Source: Escherichia coli (GTDB lineage: Bacteria; Pseudomonadota; Gammaproteobacteria; Enterobacterales; Enterobacteriaceae). From it: DNA of 64,000 bases. This document shows, one piece after another, positions 2,572-19,613 of the stretch. The stretch lies in assembly GCF_024298765.1 (NCBI RefSeq), contig NZ_CP101210.1; one strand, given 5' to 3'. The first letter of the stretch is position 1. Every line of letters starts with the position of its first letter. The position numbers and the translations under genes were made by a program. Under the pieces are notes generated by a model. It ran no database searches. It saw only the letters and a list, made by a program, of their open reading frames with translations, and was not told the DNA's origin.

Positions 2572-2600
2572 TTAAACAGGGTGACAGTCCGACATACCGG

Positions 2601-3425: not shown

Positions 3426-4106
3426 TCACAGGTTAAAGGTGTTGATAAGTTTATGGATGAAAGAGAAATGTGGCAGGGCGGAGATAAAACGCTCTTCAGC
3501 GACCAGACTGTGGATGTGGCCTCTCCGTTCAAACCGTTCTGATGTCAGGCTGACTGATTTGATATCTGCCAGAGGAAAGACCTGCAGTTTTCCCTTCTGT
3601 AACGCGATCAGATACCAGCTACCGCTGTAATAAATGAGCCGGCAGGGCTCCAGTGACGGATACCATCGCTCAGTCATCAGAGAGATGTGGATACACTGTC
3701 TTATTGCCAGGATGAGTTGCGAGAAACACTCGGGGAACGTTGCAGTGATATCCGGCGCCGGTAGCCAGATAAGGCAGGGAGAGGGCTCCTGGTTGTCGGT
3801 AAGACAGGTTATCAGTCGTCCGTTCCGGAGCGGAAGTATCCGTGCGATCCCGGTATTCTGTATAAAAGAAAGCATTTCAGGGATCGCACCTGGGCTGCTC
3901 TGTCGTCTGAGGCTGTACCTGCCATTTCTGTACTCTAAATCCAGGTGAACCAGACGCTGATGAAAATCGCGCTGTAAAGTACGTTCTGTAACGCCAAATT
4001 CATCTGACAGTGTTTTTAGTGACAGAGATTCTCCGGCCATCAGTCGGCTGATAATGAGTGATAAGCGAACCGCCAGGCGATCATGCCGGGAACGATTATC
4101 AGACAT
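3426..4106 (-). CDS. WYL-domain transcriptional regulator (YfjR-like)
   Basis: 226 aa; N-terminal HTH (LSLKTLSDEFGVTERTLQRDF) and WYL motif (SGSWYLIAL). Confidence 0.6.
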   Translation of the reverse strand: MSDNRSRHDRLAVRLSLIISRLMAGESLSLKTLSDEFGVTERTLQRDFHQRLVHLDLEYRNGRYSLRRQSSPGAIPEMLSFIQNTGIARILPLRNGRLITCLTDNQEPSPCLIWLPAPDITATFPECFSQLILAIRQCIHISLMTERWYPSLEPCRLIYYSGSWYLIALQKGKLQVFPLADIKSVSLTSERFERRGHIHSLVAEERFISALPHFSFIHKLINTFNL

Positions 4107-4308
4107 AGATGTGCACTCCGTAAGAAAACATCTTTTATTTCATGATGTTATTATGCATCATGATGTTGAAAGGATGTGTCGCATCCGAATAATCAGAAAT
4201 AAAATGCAGCAGAAAAAATATTCCTTTAATTATCTGATTTTTAAGCAGGGTTTCATAAAAAGAAGAATGCTTGTTAATCCAGCGACACATCCTGTCGGCG
4301 TGAGTGTG

Positions 4309-5193
4309 TCAGAACAGACGATCCCACAGTGTGACCAGCAAGTGGATAATGCGGTCCCGGGCCTTACGCAGAAGCTGTAACATCCAGGCCGGAAAGCTGA
4401 ATTGGGCAACGGCAGCGTCAAAGCTTTTCCCGATGGCGTCACCAAAAGTTTGTTGTGCGTGTTTCCGGGCCTGTTCAGAGCGGTTTTCCCCCCGGATATG
4501 TGAATAAACTGCGCTGGTTGCCTGTGGTGGCAGTGCGTGGATCATCAGCGACACCAGTGCCGGAAGATTCCAGCCGACAGGTGCGGCAACGGAGAGTACC
4601 GGAAATGATGACGGGAACAGGGGTGCCACCCGGGCTGTTACTGTCGCCAGTGAGAGTTCCTGCTGACGGGACGGGCATTTTTCTGTGTCGTTCCATTCTT
4701 CAGCAGGAAACACGCGATCGGCATGGCTGAGAACAAACAGAAAACGCGAGGGATCTGCACCTTCATTCAGTAAAAACTGATGCATGGCAATATCAGCAGC
4801 ATACGCACGTTCATCAGCCCGCAGGATCCAGATAATCAGATCCAGTTCCGGCAGTAACTGACGGTAAAGCTCCCGGTATTCCTGATCATGCTGCGGTGTC
4901 TCACCAATGCCGGGCATATCGACCAGCGTCATTCTGCGTTCACCGAGCTGCAGGGTAAGACGATGAGCCTGGCGGGTGCAGCCGTTCAGGGGATGCGTGG
5001 CGCAGATACGGGACTGAAAAATGGCATTACACAGACTGCTTTTGCCGGTGCCGGATTTACCCATAATGCCAATTACGGGCTCGTAATGAATAACACCGTG
5101 GAGATGTTCAAGGATTTTCTGGCGAATTTCTTCAGGAAGAAACGTCAGATATGATTTTACTTGTGCAGAGAGGGAAGAATGGCTGAATGACAT
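4309..5193 (-). CDS. GTP-binding protein, YfjP/YeeP/YkfA family
   Basis: 294 aa; P-loop GKSGTGKSSLCN; DxxG-like MPGIGE. Confidence 0.65.
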   Translation of the reverse strand: MSFSHSSLSAQVKSYLTFLPEEIRQKILEHLHGVIHYEPVIGIMGKSGTGKSSLCNAIFQSRICATHPLNGCTRQAHRLTLQLGERRMTLVDMPGIGETPQHDQEYRELYRQLLPELDLIIWILRADERAYAADIAMHQFLLNEGADPSRFLFVLSHADRVFPAEEWNDTEKCPSRQQELSLATVTARVAPLFPSSFPVLSVAAPVGWNLPALVSLMIHALPPQATSAVYSHIRGENRSEQARKHAQQTFGDAIGKSFDAAVAQFSFPAWMLQLLRKARDRIIHLLVTLWDRLF

Positions 5194-5377
5194 ACCGGTA
5201 TCCTGTTGATTTCGCTGAACCGGATCACACTAATCCGGTTTATCATTCAGGTAATATGGACGTGAAAAATGATGGAATGTCTGAATTACGGACATGATTG
5301 TTAAAGTGTAATGGAGTATGAAGTGAGTTTTTCCGAACGGGAACTAATGACATACTGCGGTTTCAGGAGATGAGAGG

Positions 5378-6508
5378 ATGACCGGACGTAAAAACAAATG
5401 TGTCAGAAAAAATTGTAACAATCAGGTTTTCTCAGTAAAAATGGCAGTGGAGAAAAGACTGTGCAGAAAACATTATGAGAGGTTTTGTGAGCTCAAAAAA
5501 AGAAGAGAGCAAAATCCTGTTCACAGATTAAATGAAGCATTGCCAAGAAAGATAAAAGGACCAAAAAGTAAGAAAAAATTAGTAAAAGAAAGAGAAATCA
5601 TTAACAGCAGAAAAAAACATAAACAGGAGCAGGGACCATCGCTGACTGAACTTAATAAAAAAGTTCGTGAGATACTGAAAACTCCTGCATGGAGAACGCT
5701 GGAAACGAGAATTCGAAGAAACGGAATCACATTTAACTCAAAAGCAGAGTTAGATGCGCTTTCTGAACTTTATGCAATTTATTCATGGGTTTCATATTGC
5801 AAACGGGGCGATAATTATTCTGTGTGGTTTTTGAATTGTCCGGATGTAAATATAAACCTTCATGTGTGCGAATGCCGGTCTTCTGAAAGCGATTGTTATC
5901 TGCCATCTCGTTTTATTATTCTTCCAGCTCCATTAAGGCAAAAAGTAAAAAGAAAATACTCGGCTAATTCGTCTGGGGTACCAGGACATAATGATTCAAA
6001 AAGTCTTTATAAGACAGTTTTGTCTGTTTGTGGTGGGAAAAGAGAAACCGAAATGTTCTTTTATTCATTGCCAGTAAAGACTAATCATCATCCTTACTGG
6101 ATTAAAAGTGGTGTGGTTAAAAGATTCCCTCCTGTTTTTGGTTTGTTGTTTTATGAACAGGAAAGATTAACAGGAGGTGTTTTTCGTTATGTGTTGATAA
6201 GATTTTATAATACTTTTAAAGAGAATTTGTTTTTTGTTGAGATTGTATCGTGCTGTTTTCTTGTTGAGCTTTTTCATGATATTGATTCATTTTTTATAAA
6301 TCAACGATTAAGTAAGCTGGAAAGTTTTATAGATAAGTGGAGGGAGGGTAAAGAAATCTGGATAAAAGTATATTTACAACTGATACATACTATATTGGGA
6401 ATAACTGAAACAGAAAAACTCGTCAATCTATATAATTCATTTTTTACTGATAAAGTGGTTCTCTGGGATGAATCAGTAAAAAAAGTTAAGTGGATTTATG
6501 AGAAATAG
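5378..6508 (+). CDS. hypothetical protein, AT-rich, Cys/His-rich N-terminus
   Basis: 376-aa ORF with GAGAGG RBS; N-terminal C-x5-C...C-x3-H-x4-C then lysine-rich stretch; no family recognised. Confidence 0.4.
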   Translation: MTGRKNKCVRKNCNNQVFSVKMAVEKRLCRKHYERFCELKKRREQNPVHRLNEALPRKIKGPKSKKKLVKEREIINSRKKHKQEQGPSLTELNKKVREILKTPAWRTLETRIRRNGITFNSKAELDALSELYAIYSWVSYCKRGDNYSVWFLNCPDVNINLHVCECRSSESDCYLPSRFIILPAPLRQKVKRKYSANSSGVPGHNDSKSLYKTVLSVCGGKRETEMFFYSLPVKTNHHPYWIKSGVVKRFPPVFGLLFYEQERLTGGVFRYVLIRFYNTFKENLFFVEIVSCCFLVELFHDIDSFFINQRLSKLESFIDKWREGKEIWIKVYLQLIHTILGITETEKLVNLYNSFFTDKVVLWDESVKKVKWIYEK

Positions 6509-8013
6509 TACCATTTAACTGAAAGCCACCATAACGTCTTTTTGACTACATTTATGATAATGCGTCTCATTTTGTTTTCGTTTTTTTGTTCAGGGAAATT
6601 TTCCGAACATCAGTGATAATGAGGGTTTTGTTGTTTTTGTTTCTGCAATGTTTGAGGACTGTTCCTGGAGACGATTCGTTGCTTGTGAGCAAGAGGTGGT
6701 CCGCTTTACTGGACAAGTTTTGCATTTGTTGAGTGGTGAAATGGAAGTAAAAAGAGCCCCTTTCTGGCAATGGTTGAAAAAGTCAGTAGCGTGTGACAGT
6801 AAAAGCTAACATAAAGTGATTATCGTATGATTATGACAATGACTTATAACTTTTATGAAAAGAACAACAGAAACTACGAAGCCATAGCAGATTCCTGAGA
6901 CCATGTTTTCTGAGGTAGAGAAAATAATTCCAGAGTAAATCTGTTCTGTTTTTAGGACAGAAAACTCCATGCTGGCTGTAAAAGTGAAAAATTAACACCC
7001 AGTATGTATGGAAGTCTGAAGATGTTGAGAATGTCGGTATGATACTATATACACATATTTTACTAAGTATTTTTACTAAGCATTTCAGTAAGTGTTATAC
7101 ACGTATTTTCATAAACACTTCTACAATTGTTTTCGTTAAGCATTGCTATACACATCCAGTTTAGTAAATCTTTACGTTAACTAAATCAGTTTAATGCTGC
7201 TGTAAAACCTTTCTGCTTCAGCAATCAATCTGCTATTCGATTTTACTGATGTTACGTTTAACCTTTCCTGAGATTTCGAGTTTCGACGTTAGCATGAGAA
7301 AAGTATCTTTACGCTAAATCAACCCGAACTTTCCTGAAGTAATCTGACGTTCTTTTCGATGTGCTTACAACGATTCTGTTAAATGACTTTCTGGATGTTT
7401 TGATAACAATCAGATTTAGGCATTAACGATTCCTGACGTTTTTCTTTTCCGTGTAAGGTCATTGTTTTCGTCATGAGGTTTCTTCTTGCATTGCGAAAGT
7501 GTGATGAACGGTTTTGGTGTTTTGATTCAGATGAAGTTTACGTTATCGATGGTTAATCGTTTTTATGGTGCGTAGTGAAACGTAACGCTTTCAGGAAGGG
7601 AAAATCGATTCTGATGGGGATGATCGTGTAACGGCGTTATCTGTAAACAGGTTTTAAACATGTCATTCGCATCCGTGATTGAGTTGTGTGATTAAGCTGT
7701 AGGTTTTGGGGTTGTTGTTGATTTGCATTACCAGGAAGCGTTCTGGTTGCGTTTCTGGTGTTTTGTTTGAATGTTCTGTGGATCCTTTTCCCTTCTGACT
7801 TTTCTCGTTGTCTATGTCGTTTTTAAATCCATTCGCTGTTCTTGAGTGTTTTTACCCTGTGTGTAGAATTATCTTTTCGTTCCGGGATGGTTTGTTCCGT
7901 TTCAATCACTCTTAATCAGAAAGTTGTAGCATTGCTCAATGCCGGATGCCGTAAAGTTTTACCGCGGTGATTAATGATGTGAAGTCAATCCAAATCAACG
8001 GAGATCTCTCATC

Positions 8014-8745
8014 ATGAATCAACCAATACACAATGCTTACTGGTTATCCCGTTTTGACAGCCTTCTCGACAGTGCCCTGGCGCAGCACCGTGCCGTCTCG
8101 TTAATCCGGGTGGATTTACGTTTCCCTGAGTATATGCCTGTCACCATCATGGATCCCGATCCGGATTCAGCGGTGATTTCTCGTTTTTTTGCATCCCTGA
8201 AAGCCAAAATTCAGGCTTACCAGCGGAAAAAAAGATGTGCCAATCAGCGTGTGCATGCAACCAGCCTGGGTTATTTCTGGTGCCGGGAGTTCGGCAAGAT
8301 GTATGGCAGGAAACATTATCACGTGATATTACTGCTCAACAAAGATACCTGGTGCTCGCTCGGGGATTTCAGCGAACCGTCTTCGCTGGCGACGATGATC
8401 CAGGAGGCATGGTGCAGCGCCCTGCATCTTGAGCCCTGGCAGGGTAATGGACTGGTTCATTTTTCCAGGCGGACGCCTTTCCGTAAACCGACATCATCTG
8501 ATGCTCGCCCTTCTTCCGATGATACGCCTTTGTCGGGTGGATGTTCTGAAACCAGGAAGGTTTCAGACAAAAAGTCTGGTGAAGCCGCTGTTCTCTGGAT
8601 CAAGCGTGGTGATGTGGAAGCGATGCAGAAAGCCCGGAACAGAGCCAGTTATCTCGTGAAAAATGAAACGAAGTTGCATGATGGTTCAGGTCAACGTAAT
8701 TATGGTTGCAGTCGTGGGCCGGGGCGTCTACTGGATGGCAGGTGA
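8014..8745 (+). CDS. YagK/YfjJ family protein (inovirus Gp2-like)
   Basis: 243 aa; YHVILLLNKD core; preceded by ~1.5 kb AT-rich leader; IS1 lies about 350 bp downstream. Confidence 0.55.
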   Translation: MNQPIHNAYWLSRFDSLLDSALAQHRAVSLIRVDLRFPEYMPVTIMDPDPDSAVISRFFASLKAKIQAYQRKKRCANQRVHATSLGYFWCREFGKMYGRKHYHVILLLNKDTWCSLGDFSEPSSLATMIQEAWCSALHLEPWQGNGLVHFSRRTPFRKPTSSDARPSSDDTPLSGGCSETRKVSDKKSGEAAVLWIKRGDVEAMQKARNRASYLVKNETKLHDGSGQRNYGCSRGPGRLLDGR

Positions 8746-9111
8746 ACCCTGTAAAACAGCATCTGGTGCCTGAGTGTATACCACGGTAAGGGCGTTGGAT
8801 GATGTCTTTAAATAATACAGTGCATTTTCATTCGTTTCCGCACTTTATGTTTTCACTAATCATAATAGGAAAAGTGACCACTAGCCTTGATAAATTGTAT
8901 TCACGGCCATTTCAGGAGTGGATTGTTGTGAATAACACGATGAGATCAGGGGGCTGAAGATTTTTTCTTTATCCGTTCAGACTTCAGTAACTGGAAAAAG
9001 CTTTCTGTAACCGCATTATAGTGGCAGTTACCGCGATGGTCGTGTTATTTCAGGAACGACTGACGCTCATGGCTTGTACACTAAAGAGTGAACTTAGGTA
9101 ATGACTCCAAC

Positions 9112-9615
9112 TTATTGATAGTGTTTTATGTTCAGATAATGCCCGATGACTTTGTCATGCAGCTCCACCGATTTTGAGAACGACAGCGACTTCCGTCCCA
9201 GCCGTGCCAGGTGCTGCCTCAGATTCAGGTTATGCCGCTCAATTCGCTGCGTATATCGCTTGCTGATTACGTGCAGCTTTCCCTTCAGGCGGGATTCATA
9301 CAGCGGCCAGCCATCCGTCATCCATATCACCACGTCAAAGGGTGACAGCAGGCTCATAAGACGCCCCAGCGTCGCCATAGTGCGTTCACCGAATACGTGC
9401 GCAACAACCGTCTTCCGGAGACTGTCATACGCGTAAAACAGCCAGCGCTGGCGCGATTTAGCCCCGACATAGCCCCACTGTTCGTCCATTTCCTCGCAGA
9501 CGATGACGTCACTGCCCGGCTGTATGCGCGAGGTTACCGACTGCGGCCTGAGTTTTTTAAGTGACGTAAAATCGTGTTGAGGCCAACGCCCATAATGCGG
9601 GCAGTTGCCCGGCAT
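9112..9615 (-). CDS. insB: IS1 transposase InsB
   Basis: 167-aa ORF matching IS1 InsB as recalled. Confidence 0.9.
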
Positions 9616-9809
9616 CCGACGCCATTCATGGCCATATCAATGATTTTCTGGTGCGTACCGGGTTGAGAGGCGGTGTAAGTGAACTGTAGTTGCCATGTTT
9701 TACGGCAATGAGAGCAGAGATAGCGCTGATGTCCGGCAGTGCTTTTGCCGTTACGCACCACGCCTTCAGGAGCGGAGCAGGAAGGACATCTGATGGAAAT
9801 GGAAGCCAC
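9534..9809 (-). CDS. insA: IS1 protein InsA
   Basis: 91-aa ORF; Zn-finger CPSC...CSHC and HTH of InsA. Confidence 0.9.
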
Positions 9810-10072
9810 GCAAGCACCTTAAAATCACCATCATACACTAAATCAGTAAGTTGGCACCATTACCTGACCAAGCTTCCTCTATTGCGGCACCTGATTGCAT
9901 CAATATCGAAAGTGATAAGATCCTCTCACTAGCAGGGCATGACAAGTGTAACTGCTGATTTGTTAGCCTGTTTTAAGTTTTTTAAGATCAATTATTTCTC
10001 ATTTTTTGACTTTATTGCTAGCCGTGAAAATGCAAAGCCTATAGGATACAAAAATTACAATTTGTAGGTTTT

Positions 10073-10579
10073 GTGAGTCATATGAAGGCAACCAATATAG
10101 ACCCTCAACTGCTTGAAAAAGCCACGAGTATCTTTGCTGAGTTGGGCTTACCTATTGAGCAGGCTATTAACGTCTTTTTAGCTAAATCCGTTCAAGCCAA
10201 AGGTTTTCCGTTTTCTGTTGCTCTTGAAAATGAAGTAGAGACACGGGAAGTTGCACAAACGCAACACAATATCAGCAATGCAGAGATAACCGAAGCTATC
10301 CAAGACTTGGTTGAACATGCTCTACCACTGAGTGAAATAGAAAACCTCACGCAGCTAACCTATTGTCGCAACATTTTTGGGTTGTCATTCCCCGTGCTCA
10401 AACTGGCTAAATCATCACGGCCAGAAGACATTCGCAGTGCAGCCAAAGATGCCAAAGAGCGAAACCGCTACTCCACCACTAAAGTGGCCCAGCGAGATGA
10501 AAAAACCTATGTTATTTGCACCCAATGGACCGACAGACATCGTTCTGCATTTTGCCGTTGGCAAGCCATCTTTAGCTAG
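10073..10579 (+). CDS. RelB/DinJ-like antitoxin-domain protein with ~100-aa C-terminal extension
   Basis: N-terminal IDPQLLEKATSIFAELGLPIEQAINVFLAKSVQAKGFPFSV resembles DinJ/RelB fold; no toxin ORF adjacent; ends 66 bp before hsdM. Confidence 0.4.
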   Translation: MSHMKATNIDPQLLEKATSIFAELGLPIEQAINVFLAKSVQAKGFPFSVALENEVETREVAQTQHNISNAEITEAIQDLVEHALPLSEIENLTQLTYCRNIFGLSFPVLKLAKSSRPEDIRSAAKDAKERNRYSTTKVAQRDEKTYVICTQWTDRHRSAFCRWQAIFS

Positions 10580-10645
10580 AACGCAAAATAATAACCAAAC
10601 AATACACTGATTTTTTAACGATTTAACTTCATTTAGGTAGTATCA

Positions 10646-12625
10646 ATGAACTTACAAGACAAAGAACAAAGCGCCAAACTCTCCAGTGCTATTTGGCGTA
10701 TGGCAGATGATTTATGGGGTGATTTCAAACACACCGATTTTGCGCGGATTATCCTGCCATTTTTGCTACTGCGTCGTATTGAATGCGTGTTAGAACCCAC
10801 CCGTGAGGAAGTTCGTAAGTTCTATCTGGCCGAAAAACAATCCGGCATAGACCTTGGTTTAGTGTTGCCAGAAATTGCGGGATTCGCCTTTTACAACACC
10901 AGTGAATATAGCCTAGAAACCTTAGGCGCGTCAGACACCGGCGACAACCTAGAACACTACATCAGCCAGTTCAGCAAAAACGTTCGTACCATCTTTGATG
11001 AGTTTAAATTTGGTCAAACCATAGAAGATCTGGAAAAAGCCAAGTTGCTGTATCGCATGGTAAACCATTTTGCCAACCTCGACTTGCATCCTGATGTAGT
11101 GTCTGACCGCGTATTATCAGATGCTTATGAAGAGCTGATTCTAAAGTTCGCCAGTTCGGTTAATGAAAAGGCCGGGGAATTTATGACCCCGCGTGATGCC
11201 GTGCGTCTTGCCACCAAACTGGTGCTGGCGGCGGATGAAGATATCTTTAGTGAAAAGGGTGTGATCCGCACCATCTATGACCCAACCTGTGGCACGGGCG
11301 GTTTCCTTTCCGATGCCATTAGCCAAATTGAAGAAATGGGCAGCAGCGCTAAAGTCGTGCCTTTTGGTCAAGAGCTCGACCCCGCGACCCATGCCATGGC
11401 GCTGACCAATATGATGATCCGCGGTTTTGATGCCAATAACATCAAGCAAGGCAACACCTTATCAGACGATCAGTTACGTGCCGACAAGTTTCACTACGGC
11501 CTTGCCAACCCGCCATTTGGCATTAAGTGGGAAAAAGCCAAGAAAGAAGTAGAACGTGAGCACAAACAGCTCAAATACGCCGGACGCTTTGGGCCAGGCC
11601 TGCCGAGTATTTCTGATGGTTCAATGCTGTTTTTACTGCACTTGGTATCAAAAATGGAAACGCCGGAAAATGGTGGTGGCCGAGTGGGTATAGTCCTTTC
11701 TGGCTCGCCACTGTTTAATGGCGATGCAGGCTCAGGCCCATCAGAAATCCGCCGTTGGCTGCTAGAACAAGACTTAGTCGAAGCGATTGTTGCCCTGCCA
11801 ACCGATATGTTCTTCAACACCGGCATTGGCACCTACATCTGGATTTTGACTAACCATAAAGAGCCAAGACGCAAGAATCAGGTGCAACTGATTAACTTGG
11901 CAGATATTTGGACTCCCATGCGTAAATCGCAAGGCGATAAGCGCAAGTACCTGAGTGATGAACAGATTGACGATATTGTCCGTGCGTACGATGGCTTTGA
12001 AGCCAGTGACAACTGTAAGATCTTCCAGACTACTGATTTTGCCTACCGTAAAGTCACCATTCAGCGTCCACTGCGTGCCAAACTAGATATTACCGCTGCG
12101 GGCATTGCTGCATTTGTGCAGCAAGATACGTTTAAAAAACTCAAACCAGAGCAACAAGCGGCATGGGTACAATACCTCACCGATAACCTTGGCCTTCAGC
12201 CTTATGAATGGGCACGTTTGGCGGTTAAGAAGAATAACAATAAGGGTGACTTTGGTAAGTGCTCAAAAGCACTGGCTACGGCCTTAACTGCGCACTTTGT
12301 AAAAATTGATCCGCAATTTGAGCCTGCACTGGATGAAAAAGGCCAAGTGATCGCCGACCCTAAACTCAAAGACACCGAAAGCATTCCTTTTGACCGCGAC
12401 GTTGAAGATTACTTCGCACAAGAGGTGCTGCCACATGTACCGGATGCCTTTATTGATCACTCAGTGCGTGATGAAAAAGACGGCGAAGTGGGCATTGTCG
12501 GTTATGAAATTAACTTTAACCGCTATTTCTACCAATACGTGCCACCACGCGAGTTGAGTGTGATTGATCGTGAGCTAAAAGCATGTGAAGCGCGCATTCA
12601 GGCTCTGCTGAATGAGGTGGCGTAA
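10646..12625 (+). CDS. hsdM: Type I restriction-modification methyltransferase subunit HsdM
   Basis: 659 aa; motifs FMTPR, DPTCGTGGFL (SAM binding), NPPFG (catalytic); stop overlaps hsdS start (TAATG). Confidence 0.9.
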   Translation: MNLQDKEQSAKLSSAIWRMADDLWGDFKHTDFARIILPFLLLRRIECVLEPTREEVRKFYLAEKQSGIDLGLVLPEIAGFAFYNTSEYSLETLGASDTGDNLEHYISQFSKNVRTIFDEFKFGQTIEDLEKAKLLYRMVNHFANLDLHPDVVSDRVLSDAYEELILKFASSVNEKAGEFMTPRDAVRLATKLVLAADEDIFSEKGVIRTIYDPTCGTGGFLSDAISQIEEMGSSAKVVPFGQELDPATHAMALTNMMIRGFDANNIKQGNTLSDDQLRADKFHYGLANPPFGIKWEKAKKEVEREHKQLKYAGRFGPGLPSISDGSMLFLLHLVSKMETPENGGGRVGIVLSGSPLFNGDAGSGPSEIRRWLLEQDLVEAIVALPTDMFFNTGIGTYIWILTNHKEPRRKNQVQLINLADIWTPMRKSQGDKRKYLSDEQIDDIVRAYDGFEASDNCKIFQTTDFAYRKVTIQRPLRAKLDITAAGIAAFVQQDTFKKLKPEQQAAWVQYLTDNLGLQPYEWARLAVKKNNNKGDFGKCSKALATALTAHFVKIDPQFEPALDEKGQVIADPKLKDTESIPFDRDVEDYFAQEVLPHVPDAFIDHSVRDEKDGEVGIVGYEINFNRYFYQYVPPRELSVIDRELKACEARIQALLNEVA

Positions 12626-13911
12626 TGAATGCTGGCAACATAGTAGATGCTTTCGTATCTGACTCGAAATGGAACTCAGTACCAGCTAAACGTTTATTTA
12701 CGAGTAGCAAAGAAATCAATCAAGGAATGAAAGAATCTAATCGTCTTGCACTAACAATGAAAGGTGTCATAAACCGCTCGTTAGACGATTTACAAGGACT
12801 TCAATCTTCTGATTACTCTGTTTATCAGATTTTTGAAAAAGATGACTTAGTTTTTAAGCTCATAGATCTTGAAAATATAAAGACTAGCCGAGTGGGGATT
12901 GTGCATGAACGAGGAATAATGAGCCCTGCATACATCCGTGTTTCAGCGAGTTCAAATAGCATCTACCCAAGGTTCTATTACTGGTACTTTTTTGCTCTAT
13001 ACCTAACCAATATTTATAACAAACTGGGTGGAGGAGTTCGTCAGAACCTAACAGCTGGTGATCTTTTAGAAATACCTGTTCCACTGATTGATATTTCATT
13101 ACAGAAGCAGGTTAGCACATTCCTTGATCGCGAAACCCAGCGCATCGACAGTCTGATCGAGGAAAAGCAGACCTTTATTAAGCTGCTCAAAGAAAAACGC
13201 CAAGCACTGATCAGCCATGTGGTCACAAAGGGGCTCTATCCCAATGTGGAGATGCAGGACTCTGGCATCGAGTGGATTGGGCAAGTGCCGAAGCATTGGG
13301 AAGTCAAAAAGATAAAGCATATTTGCTCCAACTTTATGTATGGAACCTCTCAAGACTGTAACCAGTCTGATGTTGGCTATCCTGTTCTCAGGATACCAAA
13401 CATCAAGAGTACCAATGTTGATTTTGAAGATCTCAAATATGCAAATATCAGTGATGTTGATGCTTTAACTTATCTTTTATCAAGAGGCGACATTTTAGTC
13501 ATCAGAACTAACGGTAACCCTAATCTGGTCGGCCAAAGCGCGCTTTTTGATTCAAATGGGCAGTATTTATTTGCGTCGTACCTAATAAAGTTAACACCAA
13601 AGCAAGGAGTGGATACTAGCTTCTTAGTGGAAGCGATGAACTCACTATCTGTTCGTCAAGCATTAACATTTCAGTCAAGAACATCGGTAGGTAACTACAA
13701 CCTGAGCATTCCTTCACTAGCTAATACAAGTATTGCTATCCCACCAATTGATGAGCAAAAGACAATAACGAATTACTTGAGTGCAGCAACGATAAACATT
13801 GATTTACTGATTCAAGAGACTGATAAATCGATTGATCTTCTAAAAGAACACCGCACATCGCTGATCAACGCGGCTGTCACAGGAAAAATAGACGTCAGGG
13901 AGGCGGTGTAA
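12625..13911 (+). CDS. hsdS: Type I restriction-modification specificity subunit HsdS
   Basis: 428 aa; two variable target-recognition regions separated by conserved central (ETQRIDSLIEEKQTFIKLLKEKRQALI) and C-terminal repeats; TAATG overlaps on both sides. Confidence 0.85.
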   Translation: MNAGNIVDAFVSDSKWNSVPAKRLFTSSKEINQGMKESNRLALTMKGVINRSLDDLQGLQSSDYSVYQIFEKDDLVFKLIDLENIKTSRVGIVHERGIMSPAYIRVSASSNSIYPRFYYWYFFALYLTNIYNKLGGGVRQNLTAGDLLEIPVPLIDISLQKQVSTFLDRETQRIDSLIEEKQTFIKLLKEKRQALISHVVTKGLYPNVEMQDSGIEWIGQVPKHWEVKKIKHICSNFMYGTSQDCNQSDVGYPVLRIPNIKSTNVDFEDLKYANISDVDALTYLLSRGDILVIRTNGNPNLVGQSALFDSNGQYLFASYLIKLTPKQGVDTSFLVEAMNSLSVRQALTFQSRTSVGNYNLSIPSLANTSIAIPPIDEQKTITNYLSAATINIDLLIQETDKSIDLLKEHRTSLINAAVTGKIDVREAV

Positions 13912-16900
13912 TGGCTGCACATCATGAAGTGCATTTTGAACAATATATTACCGAGCAGTTGGTGAACAATGGCTGGAAAGAAGGCCATTCCTGCCACTAT
14001 GACCAGCAACGCGCCCTTTACCCGCAAGATGTCATGGATTGGGTAAAGGCCACCCAGCCAGATGCCTGGCACAAACTGAATAAACTGCATGGTGTGAATG
14101 CCGAGCAGGTGCTGTTGGAGCGTTTGGAAAAAGCCCTCTCTTCCCACAAAGCTGGCAGTAAAACAGGTGGCACCATTAATGTGCTGCGTAAAGGCTTTAC
14201 CATTGCAGGTTGCGGCACGATTGCCATGGGCCAACGCAAACCCGAAGATGCGCGCAATGAAGAGCGTATAGCCCGTTATGAGCACAACATTTTGCGCGTG
14301 GTGCGCCAACTGAAATATTGCCCGACTCGCGAGTGGGAAATTGACTTGGTGTTCTTTATCAACGGTCTACCCGTTGCCACCGCCGAGCTAAAAACCGATT
14401 TTACCCAGTCGCTAGAATCGGCGATTGCGCAGTACAAAGAGGATCGTCTGCCCGTTGACCCAAAAACCAAGCGTAAAGAGCCGCTGTTAACCTTTAAACG
14501 CGGTGCAGTGGTACATTTTGCCATGTCTGATACAGAAATCGCCATGGCGACCAAACTGGCGGGAGAAAATACCTATTTTCTGCCCTTCAATAAAGGCCAT
14601 GATGGTTCTACCTCTGATTTGCCCGTACACATCAACTTGCCGGGTGAAGATGGAGAGTATCCGGTCAGCTATTTTTGGCAAGAAATTGCCCAAAAAGATA
14701 ATTGGCTACGCATTTTCTACAGCTTTGTGTATGTCGAAACCAAAGAGGTTGCCGATAGCAATGGCAAGGTTGAGCGTAAGGAAACACAGATTTTTCCGCG
14801 TTATCATCAGTTAGCCGCAGTCAACAAGATGATTGATGATGCCCGCCAGAACGGCGCAGGCATGCAGTATCTTTGTGAGCACAGCGCCGGTTCGGGAAAA
14901 ACCTCTACCATAGCCTGGACGGCCCATGATTTGATTCGTTTACGCAGCACCGATGGTAAAGCGGTCTTTAAATCAGTGATCATTGTGACCGACCGCACCG
15001 TGCTGGATTCGCAGTTGCAAGATGCGGTGCAACAGCTGGATCATCAATATGGGGTGATTAAGGCGATTGATCGCGAAAAGAGCAGCGAGTCGAAATCAAA
15101 ACAGCTGACTGAAGCGCTATTGACTGGCACGCCGATCATTGTAGTGACGATTCAAACCTTCCCATATGCGTTAGAAGCGATTCTGACCAATCAATCTTTG
15201 GCACAAAGTAACTTTGCGGTGATCATCGATGAAGCACACACCTCGCAAACAGGCTCTACAGCCAAAGGGTTACGCGCAGCGCTTACTCTAAACCTTAGCC
15301 CTCAAGAGTTGGAGCAAATGAGCATTGAGGACATTCTTACTAAGGTGCAAGAAGCGCGCGCCATGCCCAAGAACGTTTCGCACTTTGCTTTTACGGCAAC
15401 ACCCAAGCACAGCACCAAGATGTTGTTTGGCCGCCCGAAAGACCCTAACCAACCAGTGTCAGATGACAATCTTCCTGAATCGTTCCACCTCTACACCCAA
15501 CGTCAGGCCATTGATGAGGGTTTTATTCTTGATGTGCTGGAGAATTACACCCACTACGATACAGCCTACAAAATTGGTGAGAACAATCTGGATGAGAAGC
15601 GCGTAGACAGCAAACAAGCTCGCCGCGCGTTGGCGCGCTGGATGTCACTGCACCCAACCACGGTCAGCCAAAAAGTCGAATTTATTATTAAGCACTTCAA
15701 GGCCAATATCGCTCACCTACTGGAAGGTGAAGCCAAAGCCATGGTGGTCACATCGGGCAGGCCACAGGCGGTGAAATACAAGCTTGCTTTTGATAAATAC
15801 ATTAAAAAGCATGGTATTGAAGGTATCCAAGCCTTGGTTGCCTTCTCGGGCAAAGTCCCCGGCAAAGATTTGGGTGATGAAGACAGCCAAGACCCGCTAG
15901 AAATTGATTTCGATAAAGAGTACACCGAGTACAACTTAAACCCAGACACGCACGGGGCTGACCTGCGCCATGAGTTTGAGAAAACCGAATATCGCGTCAT
16001 GTTAGTCGCCAACAAGTTCCAAACGGGCTTTAATCAACCAAAACTGGTTGCCATGTATTTGGATAAGAAAATATCCGATGTAGAAGCGGTGCAAACGCTG
16101 TCTCGCCTAAACCGCACCTATCCAGGCAAAGACACAACCTTCGTGATTGATTTTGTTAACGATCCACAAACCATTCTCAATGCGTTCAAAAAGTACGACA
16201 AAGGCGCGCAGCTTAATGAAGTGCAAGATGTGAACGTCATCTATGACATCAAAGATATTTTGGATGAACAGAACATATACAACCATCAAGATTTAGAGTT
16301 GTTTAAGCAAGCGCGTGGTAAATCGATTCTCGGCCAATCACCTGACAAAAAGCCACACGCGCACAAGAAACTGCTAGCTGCCACACAACGCCCTACCGAT
16401 GTGTTCAACGTTAAGCTCAAAGAGCTGGTTGATGCTGCAAACCATTGGGATCAGCAATACAACAAAGCGCACCTTGCGGGTGATGAAAAAGCGGCGAACT
16501 ACGCAGAATCTCAGCGCAGTGATTTCACCAAGCAGCGCGAAGCACTAATGCGTTTTAAGTCAGATTTAGCTCGATTTGTGAAGCACTATAGCTATATGGC
16601 GCAATTGATTGAGTTTGGTGATCCTGAACTGGAAAACTTTGCCGCGTTTGCTCATTTGCTATCACGTCGATTGAAAGGGGTAACACCAGAAAACATCGAT
16701 CTCAGTGCACTGGTACTAGAAAAATTCAAAATCAAATACGACAAAGAGCCGCTTCCAGAAGCGTTTAATCAGGTACTTGAACCTATCCGCCCCAACTATA
16801 ACGACCCTGCGGATCGTGAACAGGCATTTCTTGCCGATATCATTCGCCGCCTAAACGAACTGTTTGGCGATGTCGGCGACGAACCCGGTCGCCGAAACTT

Positions 16901-17147
16901 TGCCAACGGTACTATTACGCGTGTCACCCAAAATCCAATTGTGGTTGAGCAGATAGAAAAGCACGACAAGTCGATTGCCCTCAAAGGCGACTTGCCGCAA
17001 GCGGTGAAGCAAGCCGTTGTGCAGGCTCTGCTGAAAGAAGGTGATATAGCCCGAACGCTACTCAAAGACCCACAAGTTATGGCAAGTTATGTTGAGTTGA
17101 TTTTTGACATGATGAAGCAAGGTGCAGAACAGGCGGCGGTGAAATAA
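13911..17147 (+). CDS. hsdR: Type I restriction enzyme endonuclease/helicase subunit HsdR
   Basis: 1078 aa; Walker A GSGKTST and DEAH box (VIIDEAHTSQ); GGGAGG RBS; TAATG overlap with hsdS and with downstream gene. Confidence 0.9.
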   Translation: MAAHHEVHFEQYITEQLVNNGWKEGHSCHYDQQRALYPQDVMDWVKATQPDAWHKLNKLHGVNAEQVLLERLEKALSSHKAGSKTGGTINVLRKGFTIAGCGTIAMGQRKPEDARNEERIARYEHNILRVVRQLKYCPTREWEIDLVFFINGLPVATAELKTDFTQSLESAIAQYKEDRLPVDPKTKRKEPLLTFKRGAVVHFAMSDTEIAMATKLAGENTYFLPFNKGHDGSTSDLPVHINLPGEDGEYPVSYFWQEIAQKDNWLRIFYSFVYVETKEVADSNGKVERKETQIFPRYHQLAAVNKMIDDARQNGAGMQYLCEHSAGSGKTSTIAWTAHDLIRLRSTDGKAVFKSVIIVTDRTVLDSQLQDAVQQLDHQYGVIKAIDREKSSESKSKQLTEALLTGTPIIVVTIQTFPYALEAILTNQSLAQSNFAVIIDEAHTSQTGSTAKGLRAALTLNLSPQELEQMSIEDILTKVQEARAMPKNVSHFAFTATPKHSTKMLFGRPKDPNQPVSDDNLPESFHLYTQRQAIDEGFILDVLENYTHYDTAYKIGENNLDEKRVDSKQARRALARWMSLHPTTVSQKVEFIIKHFKANIAHLLEGEAKAMVVTSGRPQAVKYKLAFDKYIKKHGIEGIQALVAFSGKVPGKDLGDEDSQDPLEIDFDKEYTEYNLNPDTHGADLRHEFEKTEYRVMLVANKFQTGFNQPKLVAMYLDKKISDVEAVQTLSRLNRTYPGKDTTFVIDFVNDPQTILNAFKKYDKGAQLNEVQDVNVIYDIKDILDEQNIYNHQDLELFKQARGKSILGQSPDKKPHAHKKLLAATQRPTDVFNVKLKELVDAANHWDQQYNKAHLAGDEKAANYAESQRSDFTKQREALMRFKSDLARFVKHYSYMAQLIEFGDPELENFAAFAHLLSRRLKGVTPENIDLSALVLEKFKIKYDKEPLPEAFNQVLEPIRPNYNDPADREQAFLADIIRRLNELFGDVGDEPGRRNFANGTITRVTQNPIVVEQIEKHDKSIALKGDLPQAVKQAVVQALLKEGDIARTLLKDPQVMASYVELIFDMMKQGAEQAAVK

Positions 17148-17701
17148 TGAATACTGCGTTTCGGGTTTTACTTACGTTCAATGCAACATCACTACTAGTG
17201 ATTATCTTTGCGGTACAAAAAGGGTACTCACTCGGATATTTCTTTGGTGGTTTCGCTTGCTTCGATTGGATAGCAGCACTTCCGAACGCAGTATCATATT
17301 TACTCTATTTTCTTATCCCTGTTTTATCGACTGGATTGAGTATTTGGCTGAGTAAGTATTTGGGTAAAGACGATTTTAAGGCGGGTGAAGTAGCGAGTAT
17401 TGAGCATGCCAATAACAGCTTCCTACCAAGTTATTTGGGTTACTTTTTCGTGGCGTTGAGCATTGGTAACTGGGAGACATTGTGGTTTGTTTATGGCGTT
17501 TTGTTTGTTTTTACTCTCTTATCGCAAGCACTCTACTTTAACCCATTGTTTTTACTGTTTGGTTATGAGTTTTATAACATTACAACCAAAAACGGAACGG
17601 CCATTTTCCTTATTAGCCGAGAGCGCTACAAGAAGCCAGATGACATCGAAATATCATTGGCTTATCGAATCAATAATTACACATTTATCGAGCGAGGATA
17701 A
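17147..17701 (+). CDS. small integral membrane protein (about 4 predicted TM helices), translationally coupled to hsdR; KwaA-like candidate
   Basis: 184 aa; hydrophobic segments LLVIIFAV, YLLYFLIPVLSTGLSIWL, YLGYFFVALSI, LWFVYGVLFVFTLL; start overlaps hsdR stop (TAATG); visibly more AT-rich than hsdR. Confidence 0.6.
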   Translation: MNTAFRVLLTFNATSLLVIIFAVQKGYSLGYFFGGFACFDWIAALPNAVSYLLYFLIPVLSTGLSIWLSKYLGKDDFKAGEVASIEHANNSFLPSYLGYFFVALSIGNWETLWFVYGVLFVFTLLSQALYFNPLFLLFGYEFYNITTKNGTAIFLISRERYKKPDDIEISLAYRINNYTFIERG

Positions 17702-18543
17702 TGATGGACCATGTACTGGCACATATAAAAACTAGAGCAAAAAAACGCATTTTCAAATTGGTTTCTGATCAATCTCTTTTTGATACCGTCACAATCGACT
17801 TAAATGCCTGTATTCCATACAATCCAGACCATAACCTTGACGAAGACTCATGGTTTAAAATTGAAGACTTTAGTCAAAAAGAGTTTTGTATTGAACTGCT
17901 AAAAAAAGACTATGATTCAAAAGACTACGATGACTTAACCAAAGATAACTTCGCCAAGATCGCCTACTTATTTGCAATTCAAGGTAATGATTTTTACTTT
18001 CAAAAAATCACTCCAAGCCTATTCGTAAAACGCAAAACGCTTGTTTTTGGTGAAGCCGCAGAAATTGAGAAGAGCCAAACACGTTTAGTAATAAACGCCT
18101 TACCTGATGCAGTGTACTTCAAAGTGGCCGATACCTTGATATTCAAAAATCTGGCAACGATCTCGAGCATTTTTAAAGGTATCGATGAGTTGTACAAGGA
18201 AGCAACAAAAGAAGAAGTTGAGCAGTTTTTAGATGCACAGTTTATAGAGTTGGGTAATGACTACAACGTAGATAGCGTCTCAAAACCTAATAGAAAACGT
18301 ATTGGCCTTGCTATGGCAACACTTGATGCGATGTCTGCTGACGATAAAGCTAACATGCTTGATTATATCGACGGTTACTGCGGTGAACAGAAGCTGAAAT
18401 TCGATAAAGAAAATCAGAAGTTTGAAATATCTAATGACGATGAGTTGAAGTTACTGCTTTATGGCATTGAACAACGCTTCTATACGACCCCGTTTGGCAA
18501 AGAAAAAAGGCTCGCTAACTCTGTAACCGCTATGGATAAATAA
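17701..18543 (+). CDS. hypothetical acidic cytoplasmic protein, coupled to the membrane protein; KwaB-like candidate
   Basis: 280 aa, no TM segments, GAGG RBS, start overlaps upstream stop (TAATG); family not recognised by eye. Confidence 0.6.
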   Translation: MMDHVLAHIKTRAKKRIFKLVSDQSLFDTVTIDLNACIPYNPDHNLDEDSWFKIEDFSQKEFCIELLKKDYDSKDYDDLTKDNFAKIAYLFAIQGNDFYFQKITPSLFVKRKTLVFGEAAEIEKSQTRLVINALPDAVYFKVADTLIFKNLATISSIFKGIDELYKEATKEEVEQFLDAQFIELGNDYNVDSVSKPNRKRIGLAMATLDAMSADDKANMLDYIDGYCGEQKLKFDKENQKFEISNDDELKLLLYGIEQRFYTTPFGKEKRLANSVTAMDK

Positions 18544-18563: not shown

Positions 18564-19613
18564 ATGAAGGTTGATTCAATGGCCGATAACATCCCACAAG
18601 CTCCTCAAGGTGAGTTTGTTCTTTTCACCAGTGCTGATGGTCAAACCCGCGTTGAGTGTCGTTTTGAGTCTGACACCTTGTGGCTTTCTCAGGCTGCAAT
18701 GGCAGAGCTTTATCAAGTTAGCTCTCAAGCAATCACCCAACACGTAAAAGCTGTCTATTCTGAAGAAGAGCTTGAGCAAATTTCAACTTGTAAGGATTAC
18801 TTACAAGTTCAACTGGAAGGTGGCAGAGAAGTAAAGCGAAGCATTCGTCACTACAGTCTTCCGGTTATTCTTGCAGTAGGATACCGAGTTCGCTCAACAC
18901 GTGGCACCCAGTTCCGCCAATGGGCAACCAGAATGTTGCAAGAATACCTAATCAAAGGATTCGTCATGGATGACGAGCGCCTGAAAAATCCGCCCATTGG
19001 CCATTCTGCTGTGCCAGATTACTTTGATGAAATGCTGGAACGCATTCGTGATATCCGAGCTAGTGAGCGTCGCGTTTATCTGCGAGTCAAAGAAATCTTT
19101 ACCATGGCTGCTGATTACGAGCCATCTAACCAAGAGACCAACCGCTTCTTCCAAACCATTCAGAATAAGCTGCATTATGCTTGTACGCATATGACGGCTG
19201 CTGAGCTTATCGCCAGCCGTGTGGATGCCAGTAAGCCGGATATGGGCTTAACCAGCTATAAAGGCGATGAAGTGCGCAAGACAGACGTTACTGTTGCCAA
19301 GAACTATTTGCGTGAAGACGAAATCAAAGAGCTTAATCGCATCGTCAATATGTGGCTCGACTTTGCTGAAGACCAAGCACTGCGTCGCAAGCAGGTATTT
19401 TTACAGGACTGGGCCGATAAGCTTGACCAGTTCTTGAGTTTTAACGATAGAGATGTATTAAACGGTGCAGGAAAAATCTCCAAGAAAGACGCTGATGACA
19501 AAGCGAAATTGGAGTTTGACCGCTTTGCCCAGCAGCGCCGTCGTTTAAAAGAAGCCGAAGGCGCACGGGCCAATATCGCAGCCCTCAAGGCCATACTAAA
19601 AAAAGATAAATAG
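18564..19613 (+). CDS. rhuM: RhuM-family protein
   Basis: 349 aa; sequence recalled as RhuM family, often found beside Type I RM loci; likely true start at ATG 18579 (GAAGG RBS). Confidence 0.55.
   Translation: MKVDSMADNIPQAPQGEFVLFTSADGQTRVECRFESDTLWLSQAAMAELYQVSSQAITQHVKAVYSEEELEQISTCKDYLQVQLEGGREVKRSIRHYSLPVILAVGYRVRSTRGTQFRQWATRMLQEYLIKGFVMDDERLKNPPIGHSAVPDYFDEMLERIRDIRASERRVYLRVKEIFTMAADYEPSNQETNRFFQTIQNKLHYACTHMTAAELIASRVDASKPDMGLTSYKGDEVRKTDVTVAKNYLREDEIKELNRIVNMWLDFAEDQALRRKQVFLQDWADKLDQFLSFNDRDVLNGAGKISKKDADDKAKLEFDRFAQQRRRLKEAEGARANIAALKAILKKDK

What the first reader, a model, noticed from the sequence alone, without database searches (positions are those of the whole stretch)
10073..10579. 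Orphan DinJ/RelB-like antitoxin-domain protein directly upstream of hsdM
A 168-aa ORF has an N-terminal RelB/DinJ-like segment but a ~100-aa unrelated C-terminal extension, and no RelE/YafQ-like toxin ORF is adjacent. It ends 66 bp before hsdM, so it could be a transcriptional controller of the RM/defence operon or a remnant of a TA module.
Basis: inference. Interest (0 to 1): 0.5.

Follow-up and report, generated by a model that had tools for sequence, protein, structure and literature searches.

The report
Leader regulator gene of defence operons
The ORF is a real, conserved gene, mislabelled as an antitoxin, that sits with its own conserved palindromic DNA site at the head of at least seven different anti-phage systems, so it is most likely a self-repressing switch for the restriction/defence operon behind it.

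Summary
The ORF 10073-10579 is real; its likely start is ATG 10082, giving 165 aa (RefSeq WP_000648433.1). It ends 66 bp before hsdM and has a weak DinJ/RelB ribbon-helix-helix N-terminus. A fast-evolving linker follows, then a roughly 100-aa globular C-domain with no Pfam model. No toxin gene is adjacent, here or in any relative.

It is not a toxin-antitoxin remnant. Relatives (52-90% identity, plus two more distant RHH+C-domain proteins) always lie first, on the same strand, before different defence cargo. The cargo types are two type I RM systems, a type II methyltransferase, an SNF2/DUF4391/MTase/Res system, HEC-03, PDC-S06 with Septu-like genes, and PDC-S41. Upstream neighbours are never conserved.

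Every member carries the same four-half-site palindrome just before its start codon. In the window it is ATACAA-N3-TTACAA-T-TTGTAG-N3-TTGTG, at 10046-10075.

The best reading is an autoregulatory leader repressor, a functional analogue of RptR and BrxR/CapW from an undescribed family. DNA binding, repression and the inducing signal are inferred, not shown.

The parts
10082..10579 (+). Coding sequence of the leader protein: 165 aa, WP_000648433.1. The mechanical ORF starts at GTG 10073.
   Evidence: ORF list and RefSeq annotation. Homologues start at the equivalent ATG. The substitution pattern fits a coding sequence.
10082..10216 (+). N-terminal DinJ/RelB-like ribbon-helix-helix domain, residues 1-45: a very short beta-strand (MKATNID) and two helices (8-20, 25-40) ending in the GFPF motif.
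   Evidence: Pfam RelB 5.4e-5. TIGR02384 scores 40.6 bits, below its cut-off. Profile against DinJ 4q2u gives E 0.003. AlphaFold helices.
10217..10270 (+). Variable, disordered linker, residues about 46-63.
   Evidence: pLDDT is below 50 for residues 47-60. There are 3 synonymous against 11 amino-acid-changing codons versus Vibrio. These are the variable alignment columns.
10271..10576 (+). Conserved alpha/beta C-domain, residues about 64-165, with topology a-a-a-b-a-b-b-a. Invariant motifs are FG..FPVLK, KD...NRYST and CTQWTDRHR.AF.RW. It has no Pfam model.
10046..10075 (.). Putative operator: a 30-bp palindrome of four half-sites, with its dyad at 10061. The half-sites are TACAA 10047-10051, TACAA 10056-10060, TTGTA 10062-10066 and TTGTG 10071-10075. 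It ends 6 nt before the ATG and contains the alternative GTG start.
   Evidence: Inverted repeat 10048-10060 / 10062-10074. Conserved at the same place in all family loci despite unrelated upstream DNA. It is the only match in the 64-kb window. 34 half-sites were seen against 1.3 expected.
10000..10045 (+). Conserved upstream segment that travels with the gene and presumably holds the promoter. It contains TTGACT at 10006-10011 and a TAnnAT hexamer at 10042-10047. The promoter itself is not defined.
   Evidence: Similarity to the Vibrio and Shewanella loci begins here. The consensus scan found no canonical sigma-70 site on the + strand.
10580..10645 (+). 66-bp spacer to hsdM, with no terminator-like site and no second operator copy.
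10646..17147 (+). Type I RM genes hsdM (10646-12625), hsdS (12625-13911) and hsdR (13911-17147), with overlapping stop and start codons.
   Evidence: ORFs, PADLOC MTase_I and REase_I, RefSeq names.
17147..18543 (+). Kiwa defence genes kwaA (17147-17701) and kwaB (17701-18543), fused to the end of the hsd operon.
   Evidence: PADLOC KwaA 9.3e-16 and KwaB 7.1e-14. RefSeq calls them hypothetical.
18564..19613 (+). RhuM-family gene (PADLOC PDC-S05), the last gene of the co-oriented block.
   Evidence: PADLOC 8.4e-167 and RefSeq 'virulence RhuM family protein'.
9100..9867 (-). IS1 element. It forms the left boundary of the cassette in E. coli, about 215 bp upstream of the ATG, and does not touch the conserved promoter/operator segment.
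   Evidence: insA/insB ORFs, RefSeq IS1 annotation. Matches of genomes without the cassette stop at 9867.

Best explanation
The gene encodes a two-domain DNA-binding protein that acts as the autoregulatory leader of the downstream defence operon (hsdM-hsdS-hsdR-kwaA-kwaB-rhuM). It is not an antitoxin.

Proposed mechanism:
- The DinJ-like ribbon-helix-helix N-terminus makes a dimer.
- Dimers occupy the conserved four-half-site palindrome at 10046-10075, which lies directly before the start codon.
- Occupancy limits transcription of the gene itself and of the co-oriented defence genes behind it.
Which of the two applies is unresolved.

Shown here:
- The gene is real and under selection.
- Its two-domain architecture.
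- The absence of any toxin partner.
- Its constant position as first gene before at least seven kinds of defence cargo.
- Co-conservation of the palindrome.

Inferred:
- DNA binding and repression.
- Co-transcription with hsdM.
- The nature of the signal.
For: 1. Position. In every context the family gene is first and co-oriented, separated from defence genes by between -10 and about 570 bp. The cargo seen:
- type I RM + Kiwa + RhuM (window, L001, L002, L023, L028);
- a different type I RM (L025);
- SNF2/DUF4391/N6_N4-MTase/Res, with or without HEC-01 (L006-L021, L027, L032);
- HEC-03 + RNA ligase (L003);
- PDC-S06 + Septu-like genes (L024);
- PDC-S41 (L155);
- a type II MTase (L157).
Sources. 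Upstream neighbours all differ: IS1, JetD, DUF4747, nuoN, primase island, Tn3 resolvase.

2. Operator. The palindrome ATACAA-N3-TTACAA-W-TTGTA-N3/4-TTGT lies within about 45 nt of the start codon in all members, including a roughly 35%-identical metagenomic outgroup with the identical core TACAATTTGTA. There is one copy per locus and one in the 64-kb window. In the 60 nt upstream of 11 loci, 34 half-sites were found against 1.3 expected.

3. Not an RNA element. As RNA the leader folds no better than shuffles, z = -0.66.

4. N-terminus. It resembles the DNA-binding, dimerising RHH of DinJ.

5. C-domain. It is joined to four kinds of small DNA-binding N-termini: RelB RHH, Arc-like RHH, Phd/YefM and excisionase HTH_17. 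It is also fused to HNH, DUF6946 (PD-(D/E)xK clan), DUF3427, McrB-like AAA_5 and KAP NTPases. That pattern is typical of a sensing or targeting module.

6. Co-occurrence. In 5426 complete E. coli genomes, 76 carry this hsdM and 76 carry the ORF region, all at >=99% identity. The counts match; the two genome lists were not cross-checked.

7. Precedent. RptR is the first ORF of a type I RM island in EPEC and represses its own promoter through repeated palindromes over the -10 box (PMC12255303).
Against: - No experiment and no protein-DNA model supports binding.
- No canonical sigma-70 promoter was found next to the palindrome, so overlap with the -10 box or the transcription start is assumed.
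- The RHH beta-strand is very short. Its outward-facing residues vary between members and are sometimes acidic (MDEIID, MEEQID), while the DNA motif is nearly constant.
- Placing M, S and R under one repressor gives no obvious way to delay restriction relative to methylation.
- The 76 E. coli copies are near-identical, so their co-occurrence with hsdM is weak evidence.
- Only about 15 independent contexts were examined.
Confidence: 0.6

Rival explanations
1. The protein binds DNA but is not mainly a transcription factor. Its SeqA-like C-domain would read a DNA state, such as hemimethylated, unmodified or modified sites, and the protein would work at the protein/DNA level as an accessory of the defence systems, for example by marking or shielding DNA. 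The upstream palindrome would then be only a secondary autoregulatory site.
For: - The overall layout copies SeqA: an RHH-like oligomerisation N-terminus, a flexible linker and a C-terminal domain.
- One C-domain protein gave a sub-threshold Pfam SeqA_C hit, E 3.9e-3.
- C-domain fusions to HNH, PD-(D/E)xK and McrB-like modules suggest a DNA-targeting reader.
- C-domain proteins on Bacillus and Priestia plasmids sit beside Sau3AI/MutH-family (GATC) endonucleases.
Against: - Profile comparisons with SeqA are negative.
- The partner systems are mechanistically unrelated and include non-RM systems (HEC-03, PDC-S06, PDC-S41). A shared accessory role is therefore less economical than shared regulation.
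- The strictly conserved site at its own start codon is what an autoregulator needs.
Confidence: 0.15
2. It is a C-protein-like activator or timer. At low concentration it would switch the defence operon on after entry into a new host, and at high concentration it would limit expression. It would not be a simple repressor.
For: - It sits at the head of mobile RM cassettes that move between genera: the Vibrio and E. coli cassettes are 93-96% identical in HsdM, HsdR and KwaAB.
- Multiple half-sites could provide graded occupancy, as in C-boxes.
- No strong promoter is visible, which would fit a need for activation.
Against: - It lies upstream of M, S and R together, so it cannot delay R relative to M.
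- It has no Xre-type HTH.
- It also heads non-RM systems.
Confidence: 0.1
3. It is an antitoxin-like protein-level neutraliser. An antitoxin-type DNA-binding domain would be joined to a promiscuous C-domain that holds the downstream toxic effectors in check, in the manner of the Panacea/PanA domain.
For: The N-termini paired with the C-domain are the classic antitoxin set: RelB, Phd/YefM and VapB-like. Phd-type members are followed by roughly 390-400-aa proteins of unknown function.
Against: - One domain would have to neutralise type I, II and III RM enzymes, ATPases and others.
- The same domain is fused directly to nucleases and NTPases and also occurs alone.
- RM systems already carry their own antidote, the methyltransferase.
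Confidence: 0.08
4. It is an orphan or decaying RelB/DinJ antitoxin left over from a lost TA module, with no present function.
For: The RefSeq name and the weak RelB/DinJ hits.
Against: - No toxin appears in any context.
- The C-terminal toxin-binding part is replaced by a highly conserved folded domain.
- Purifying selection acts across genera.
- The score is below the NCBIfam cut-off.
Confidence: 0.03

Closest known systems
RptR (RMS-proximal transcriptional regulator, EPEC; PDB 9R2Z; PMC12255303)
   Same: [quoted passage not shown] It is found before other cargo too. Its binding motif is conserved together with the protein and repeated next to the promoter, and the protein represses its own promoter and the island.
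BrxR/CapW wHTH-WYL-WCX repressors of BREX, CBASS and defence islands
   Same: A regulator family that sits next to many unrelated defence systems. It combines a DNA-binding domain with a ligand-sensing domain that is also found fused to nucleases and helicases, and it binds inverted repeats at its own promoter.
   Different: There is no wHTH, WYL or WCX domain here. BrxR is often divergently transcribed, as in L009 before Wadjet, whereas this family is always co-oriented as the first gene. The ligand of BrxR/CapW is ssDNA; the ligand here is unknown.
DinJ/RelB type II antitoxins (for example DinJ-YafQ, PDB 4q2u and 4ml0)
   Same: The N-terminal ribbon-helix-helix segment, including the (A/G)(L/F)PF motif. 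Autoregulation through palindromic operators is the norm for this fold.
   Different: There is no toxin gene and no toxin-wrapping C-terminal tail. A 100-aa globular domain takes its place, and the score is below the TIGR02384 cut-off.
Controller (C) proteins of type II RM systems
   Same: A small regulator gene at the head of a restriction operon, with a palindromic operator before its own start.
   Different: C proteins are Xre-type HTH proteins placed just before the endonuclease gene. Here the fold is an RHH, the gene order is regulator-M-S-R, and non-RM cargo also occurs.
SeqA (negative modulator of replication initiation)

Membership tests
Type II antitoxin, RelB/DinJ family | [quoted passage not shown] | tested here: met
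   Pfam RelB i-E 5.4e-5, residues 5-67. Family profile against DinJ 4q2u: E 0.003, residues 3-47. Two helices at 8-20 and 25-40 in the model. This is similarity at domain level only.
Type II antitoxin, RelB/DinJ family | Reaches the curated whole-protein cut-off of the NCBIfam family model | tested here: not met
   TIGR02384 scores 40.6 bits against a cut-off of 45.65. NF050811 scores 32 bits against 60.
Type II antitoxin, RelB/DinJ family | C-terminal extended segment that wraps and neutralises the toxin | tested here: not met
   Residues 64-165 form a compact alpha/beta domain, pLDDT 96.6, unrelated to RelB/DinJ C-termini.
Type II antitoxin, RelB/DinJ family | Adjacent cognate RelE/YafQ/ParE-type toxin gene | tested here: not met
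   None in the window. None in any of about 15 other contexts.
RptR-type defence-island repressors | 79-aa four-helix fold with a conserved alpha-4 recognition helix | tested here: not met
RptR-type defence-island repressors | Two or more TAGCTA-type palindromes in its own promoter | tested here: not met
   The sequence 9940-10081 has no TAGCTA, TAGATA or TATCTA repeats. The conserved motif is TACAA/TTGTA.
RptR-type defence-island repressors | First ORF of a defence island, with the motif co-conserved with the protein | tested here: met
   This is a functional analogy, not homology.
BrxR/CapW (wHTH-WYL-WCX) | wHTH, WYL and WCX domains | tested here: not met
   No such Pfam hits. By contrast, the BrxR gene in L009 shows PF26109, PF13280 and PF26107.
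BrxR/CapW (wHTH-WYL-WCX) | Co-localisation with many unrelated defence systems | tested here: met
   Seven cargo types.
RM controller (C) proteins | Xre-type helix-turn-helix protein of about 80 aa | tested here: not met
   The fold is an RHH with no HTH_3 or Xre hit.
RM controller (C) proteins | Palindromic operator (C-box) before its own gene, controlling the downstream restriction gene | tested here: inconclusive
   A palindrome is present at 10046-10075. Control of hsdR was not tested, and the gene order is regulator-M-S-R.
SeqA-like DNA-binding domain | Fold of the SeqA C-terminal domain | tested here: inconclusive
SeqA-like DNA-binding domain | Sequence or profile similarity to SeqA_C (PF03925) | tested here: not met
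   There is no Pfam SeqA hit for this protein. hhalign probability is <=1%. One distant C-domain protein hit at E 3.9e-3 only.
SeqA-like DNA-binding domain | Binding of hemimethylated GATC | not testable with these tools
   This needs biochemistry.

The most novel reading that the evidence does not exclude
The C-terminal module is a previously undescribed nucleic-acid-reading domain, distantly SeqA-like, used in two ways. Tethered to small dimerising domains (RHH, Phd/YefM, HTH), it forms a broad class of defence-operon switches and itself recognises TACAA half-sites or a DNA state. Fused to HNH, PD-(D/E)xK, McrB-like and KAP modules, it acts as their targeting or sensing domain. On this reading the E. 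coli protein works like a miniature SeqA, with two tethered readers on a dimeric hub, gating expression of a mobile type I RM-Kiwa-RhuM cassette.
Probability: 0.25. Interest if true: 0.75.

Novelty: new variant of a known kind. Interest (0 to 1): 0.58.

Why it matters
Regulation of anti-phage systems is poorly known. Only a few regulator families have been characterised: C proteins, BrxR/CapW, CapH/CapP and RptR.

This gene would add another family, one that public annotation hides under the name 'RelB/DinJ antitoxin'. It comes with a ready-made, testable operator. Its partner domain occurs in hundreds of protein clusters, many of them nuclease or NTPase fusions in defence contexts.

It also matters for counting. 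Genome surveys would score these genes as orphan antitoxins, which inflates toxin-antitoxin counts and misses a control point of mobile RM/Kiwa cassettes that move between Vibrio and E. coli.

Tried and rejected
- SeqA homology by sequence. I ran hhalign of the C-domain alignments against E. coli SeqA, of the Arc-like subgroup against SeqA, and the narrow profile against PDB sequences. All were negative. A SeqA homologue search meant to build a deeper profile listed only relatives >=82% identical, so it was of no use.\n\n- Operator scan of the metagenome collection. Only 3 carried the gene, all E. coli-type copies; the rest were chance matches in AT-rich DNA. The motif alone is not specific at that scale.\n\n- Phage and viral collections. 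There were no relatives in IMG/VR or in GenBank phages. The species-representative genome scan returned only 6 loci.\n\n- RNA element in the leader. Rejected: MFE -7.9 kcal/mol, z = -0.66. Half-site sequence is conserved, not base pairing.\n\n- Promoter assignment. No sigma-70 consensus site lies on the + strand. Manual candidates (TTGACT 10006-10011, TAGGAT 10042-10047, TACAAT 10056-10061) lack a properly spaced partner hexamer, so the promoter is left undefined.\n\n- Hidden toxin. The small overlapping ORFs around the gene match nothing.\n\n- A Fusobacterium tblastn hit (H31) proved to be an ordinary 93-aa RelB-like protein without the C-domain.\n\n- Literature searches for the protein accessions, for DUF4391/SNF2, for DUF1413/DUF6946 and for RHH defence regulators found no description of this family. 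RptR is unrelated in fold.

Full report
**Observation**

The window holds a 168-codon ORF from GTG 10073 to the stop at 10579 on the + strand. RefSeq annotates the same gene from ATG 10082 (165 aa, WP_000648433.1, 'type II toxin-antitoxin system RelB/DinJ family antitoxin'), and homologues begin at the equivalent Met.

The N-terminal similarity to RelB/DinJ is real but weak:
- Pfam RelB gives i-E 5.4e-5.
- TIGR02384 gives 40.6 bits, below its curated cut-off of 45.65.
- DinJ structures match at E 0.011 with the single sequence and 0.003 with the family profile, covering residues 3-47.

Residues about 64-165 match nothing in Pfam, NCBIfam, PADLOC or PHROGs.

The ORF is a real gene. Against Vibrio and Shewanella copies, most differences fall at third codon positions (47 of 71 for L023). 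Synonymous changes outnumber replacements in both terminal domains. The 18-residue linker shows the opposite, 3 synonymous against 11 replacement codons.

**No toxin**

IS1 (about 9100-9867) lies upstream and hsdM downstream. The short ORFs overlapping the gene match no family. In relatives the upstream neighbour is different every time: JetD of a Wadjet system, DUF4747, nuoN, a primase/AlpA island, a Tn3 resolvase. None is toxin-like.

**What lies downstream**

The window carries hsdM-hsdS-hsdR with overlapping stops and starts. These are followed directly by KwaA/KwaB (Kiwa) and a RhuM/PDC-S05 gene. The same block occurs in Vibrio (L023, L028) with 93-96% identical HsdM, HsdR and KwaAB but a different HsdS.

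Members of the protein family at lower identity head other cargo:
- a different type I RM (L025);
- an SNF2 (HKD+Snf2)-DUF4391-N6_N4 methyltransferase-Res system, with or without an embedded HEC-01 pair (L006-L021, L027, and Photobacterium plasmid L032);
- HEC-03B/HEC-03A plus an RNA ligase in Aeromonas (L003);
- PDC-S06 followed by Septu-like PtuA/PDC-M01B (L024).

Two more distant RHH+C-domain proteins precede PDC-S41 (L155) and a type II methyltransferase (L157).

In all cases the gene is first and co-oriented. It abuts or overlaps the next gene or lies within a few hundred bases of it.

In 5426 complete E. coli genomes, 76 carry this hsdM and 76 carry the ORF region, all at >=99% identity. 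The counts match, but I did not cross-check the two genome lists.

**A conserved DNA site travels with the gene**

Upstream regions were aligned from ten loci whose flanking DNA is otherwise unrelated. They share ATACAA-N3-TTACAA-W-TTGTA(G)-N3/4-TTGT, ending 5-20 nt before the start codon.

In the window the site is 10046-10075. It has four half-sites:
- TACAA 10047-10051
- TACAA 10056-10060
- TTGTA 10062-10066
- TTGTG 10071-10075

They are symmetric about 10061. The repeat finder reports arms 10048-10060 and 10062-10074 at 85% complementarity.

The core TACAAWTTGTA occurs once in the 64-kb window and once in each of the 17 loci that have an exact copy, always at this position. The roughly 35%-identical outgroup P0056 has the identical core. 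Across 11 loci the 60 nt before the gene hold 34 TACAA/TTGTA half-sites against 1.3 expected. These loci are related, so the Poisson P value overstates independence.

Folded as RNA, the leader is no more stable than shuffles, z = -0.66. Sequence is conserved rather than pairing, so this is a protein-binding DNA site, not an RNA structure.

No terminator-like site, and no second copy of the motif, lies between the gene and hsdM.

**The C-domain**

AlphaFold gives a confident compact domain: pLDDT 96.6 with a 64-sequence alignment, topology a-a-a-b-a-b-b-a.

A profile of it finds 352 clusters (E<=1e-3) among 1.84 billion representatives. They fall into three groups:
- Many are roughly 170-aa proteins with a small N-terminal DNA-binding domain of a different kind. 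Of 47 scanned, 13 hit Phd/YefM and 6 hit HTH_17 at E<=0.1, alongside RelB and an Arc-like RHH.
- Some are the domain alone.
- Others are fusions to HNH, DUF6946 (placed in the PD-(D/E)xK clan by PMC10584680), DUF3427, McrB-like AAA_5 and KAP NTPases.

One further lead: TACAA/TTGTA half-sites are also enriched before five C-domain genes that have Phd, HTH or Arc-type N-termini, with 6 observed against 1.1 expected. If this holds in a larger sample, the C-domain rather than the RHH reads the site. This would fit the poor conservation of the short RHH beta-strand (MKATNID, MKDSKLD, MDEIID, MLTQLD). The sample is small and the test was chosen after seeing the data.

**Interpretation**

The most economical reading is an autoregulatory leader protein. 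It would bind its own palindromic site and so set the expression of the co-oriented defence operon. Its second domain would either sense a nucleic-acid-type signal or be the DNA reader.

This is the logic demonstrated for RptR, the first ORF of a type I RM/DarTG2 island in EPEC (PMC12255303), and for BrxR/CapW. The protein here shares neither their folds nor their motifs. I found no description of it in the searchable literature.

The following were not shown: DNA binding, the direction of regulation, co-transcription with hsdM, and the signal.

The rivals considered are:
- a SeqA-like DNA-state reader acting at the protein level;
- a C-protein-like activator;
- a promiscuous antitoxin-like neutraliser;
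- a decayed antitoxin.

The last is contradicted by the conservation data.

**Verdict**

The gene is a new variant of a known kind, a defence-island leader regulator. It is built from a DinJ-like RHH and an undescribed, widely distributed domain. Interest is moderate to good, because the hypothesis can be tested directly with a defined 30-bp site.

Noticed in passing
window 17147-18543 (+): Two genes that RefSeq calls 'hypothetical protein' are a Kiwa defence pair: KwaA, a 184-aa membrane protein, and KwaB, a 280-aa DUF4868 protein. They are fused to the 3' end of hsdR by overlapping stop/start codons, so type I RM and Kiwa look like one transcription unit.
   Followed up: partly
window 18564-19613 (+) and 19671-20057 (-): A RhuM-family gene (PADLOC PDC-S05, E 8e-167) closes the co-oriented block. 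On the other strand sits a MobI(A/C) conjugative-transfer gene. Together with the 93-96% identity to Vibrio loci L023 and L028, this suggests an IncC-mobilisable cassette recently shared between Vibrio and E. coli.
   Followed up: partly
window 9100-9867 (-): IS1 forms the left junction of the cassette in the three E. coli genomes whose annotation was inspected (S30, 2009C-3133, FY10). The DNA beyond IS1 differs between strains: a tRNA-Leu island in S30, a class 1 integron/Tn21-like region in 2009C-3133, and a CP4-like island next to tRNA-Sec in FY10 and in the window. The cassette therefore appears to have been moved by IS1-linked rearrangements.
   Followed up: partly
RefSeq naming of WP_000648433.1 and relatives: The family is named 'RelB/DinJ family antitoxin' or 'addiction module antitoxin' across NCBI and UniRef. 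It scores below the TIGR02384 cut-off and never has a toxin partner. This looks like a systematic misannotation that inflates counts of orphan antitoxins.
   Followed up: yes
L009 10498-20498; also L006, L014, L016, L032: A recurrent RM-like operon has the order SNF2 (HKD+Snf2, PADLOC C3a139) - DUF4391 - N6_N4 methyltransferase - ResIII/RE_endonuc. A HEC-01 (AAA_21 + DUF4276) pair or an Abi_2 gene is inserted between the methyltransferase and the Res gene in some copies. I found no paper on the DUF4391 component.
   Followed up: no
L161 3299-4321 and L163 3056-4294 (Priestia and Bacillus plasmids): Longer proteins ending in the same C-domain lie immediately upstream of Sau3AI/MutH-family (GATC-specific) endonuclease genes in two unrelated plasmids. 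This is intriguing, because SeqA, the weak structural match of the domain, is also a GATC reader.
   Followed up: no
L033 8770-9483 (IncC plasmid pKAZ2, KR827391.1): An unannotated 237-aa ORF encodes an HNH nuclease fused to the C-domain. The same architecture recurs in metagenomic proteins P0059 and P0063.
   Followed up: no
L029 835-2010 and L030 1861-3066: Phd/YefM-type C-domain proteins are followed by roughly 390-400-aa proteins with no Pfam or PADLOC family. In L030 the next genes are a DEDDh exonuclease and an ADP-ribosylglycohydrolase. This may be an undescribed two-gene module.
   Followed up: no
L009 3371-9879: In Vibrio parahaemolyticus the family gene and its SNF2 operon sit directly after a Wadjet (MksB/E/F-JetD) system that has its own divergent BrxR regulator. 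Two regulator families therefore serve adjacent systems in one island.
   Followed up: no
window 1-9000: This region is CP4-like island content: a YeeU-type antitoxin, DUF987, RadC, an antirestriction protein, DUF932, DUF905, a YafY-family regulator and a GTPase. An inovirus Gp2-family gene lies at 8014-8745 and an unannotated-function 376-aa ORF at 5378-6508. Identifications are by position in strain FY10.
   Followed up: no
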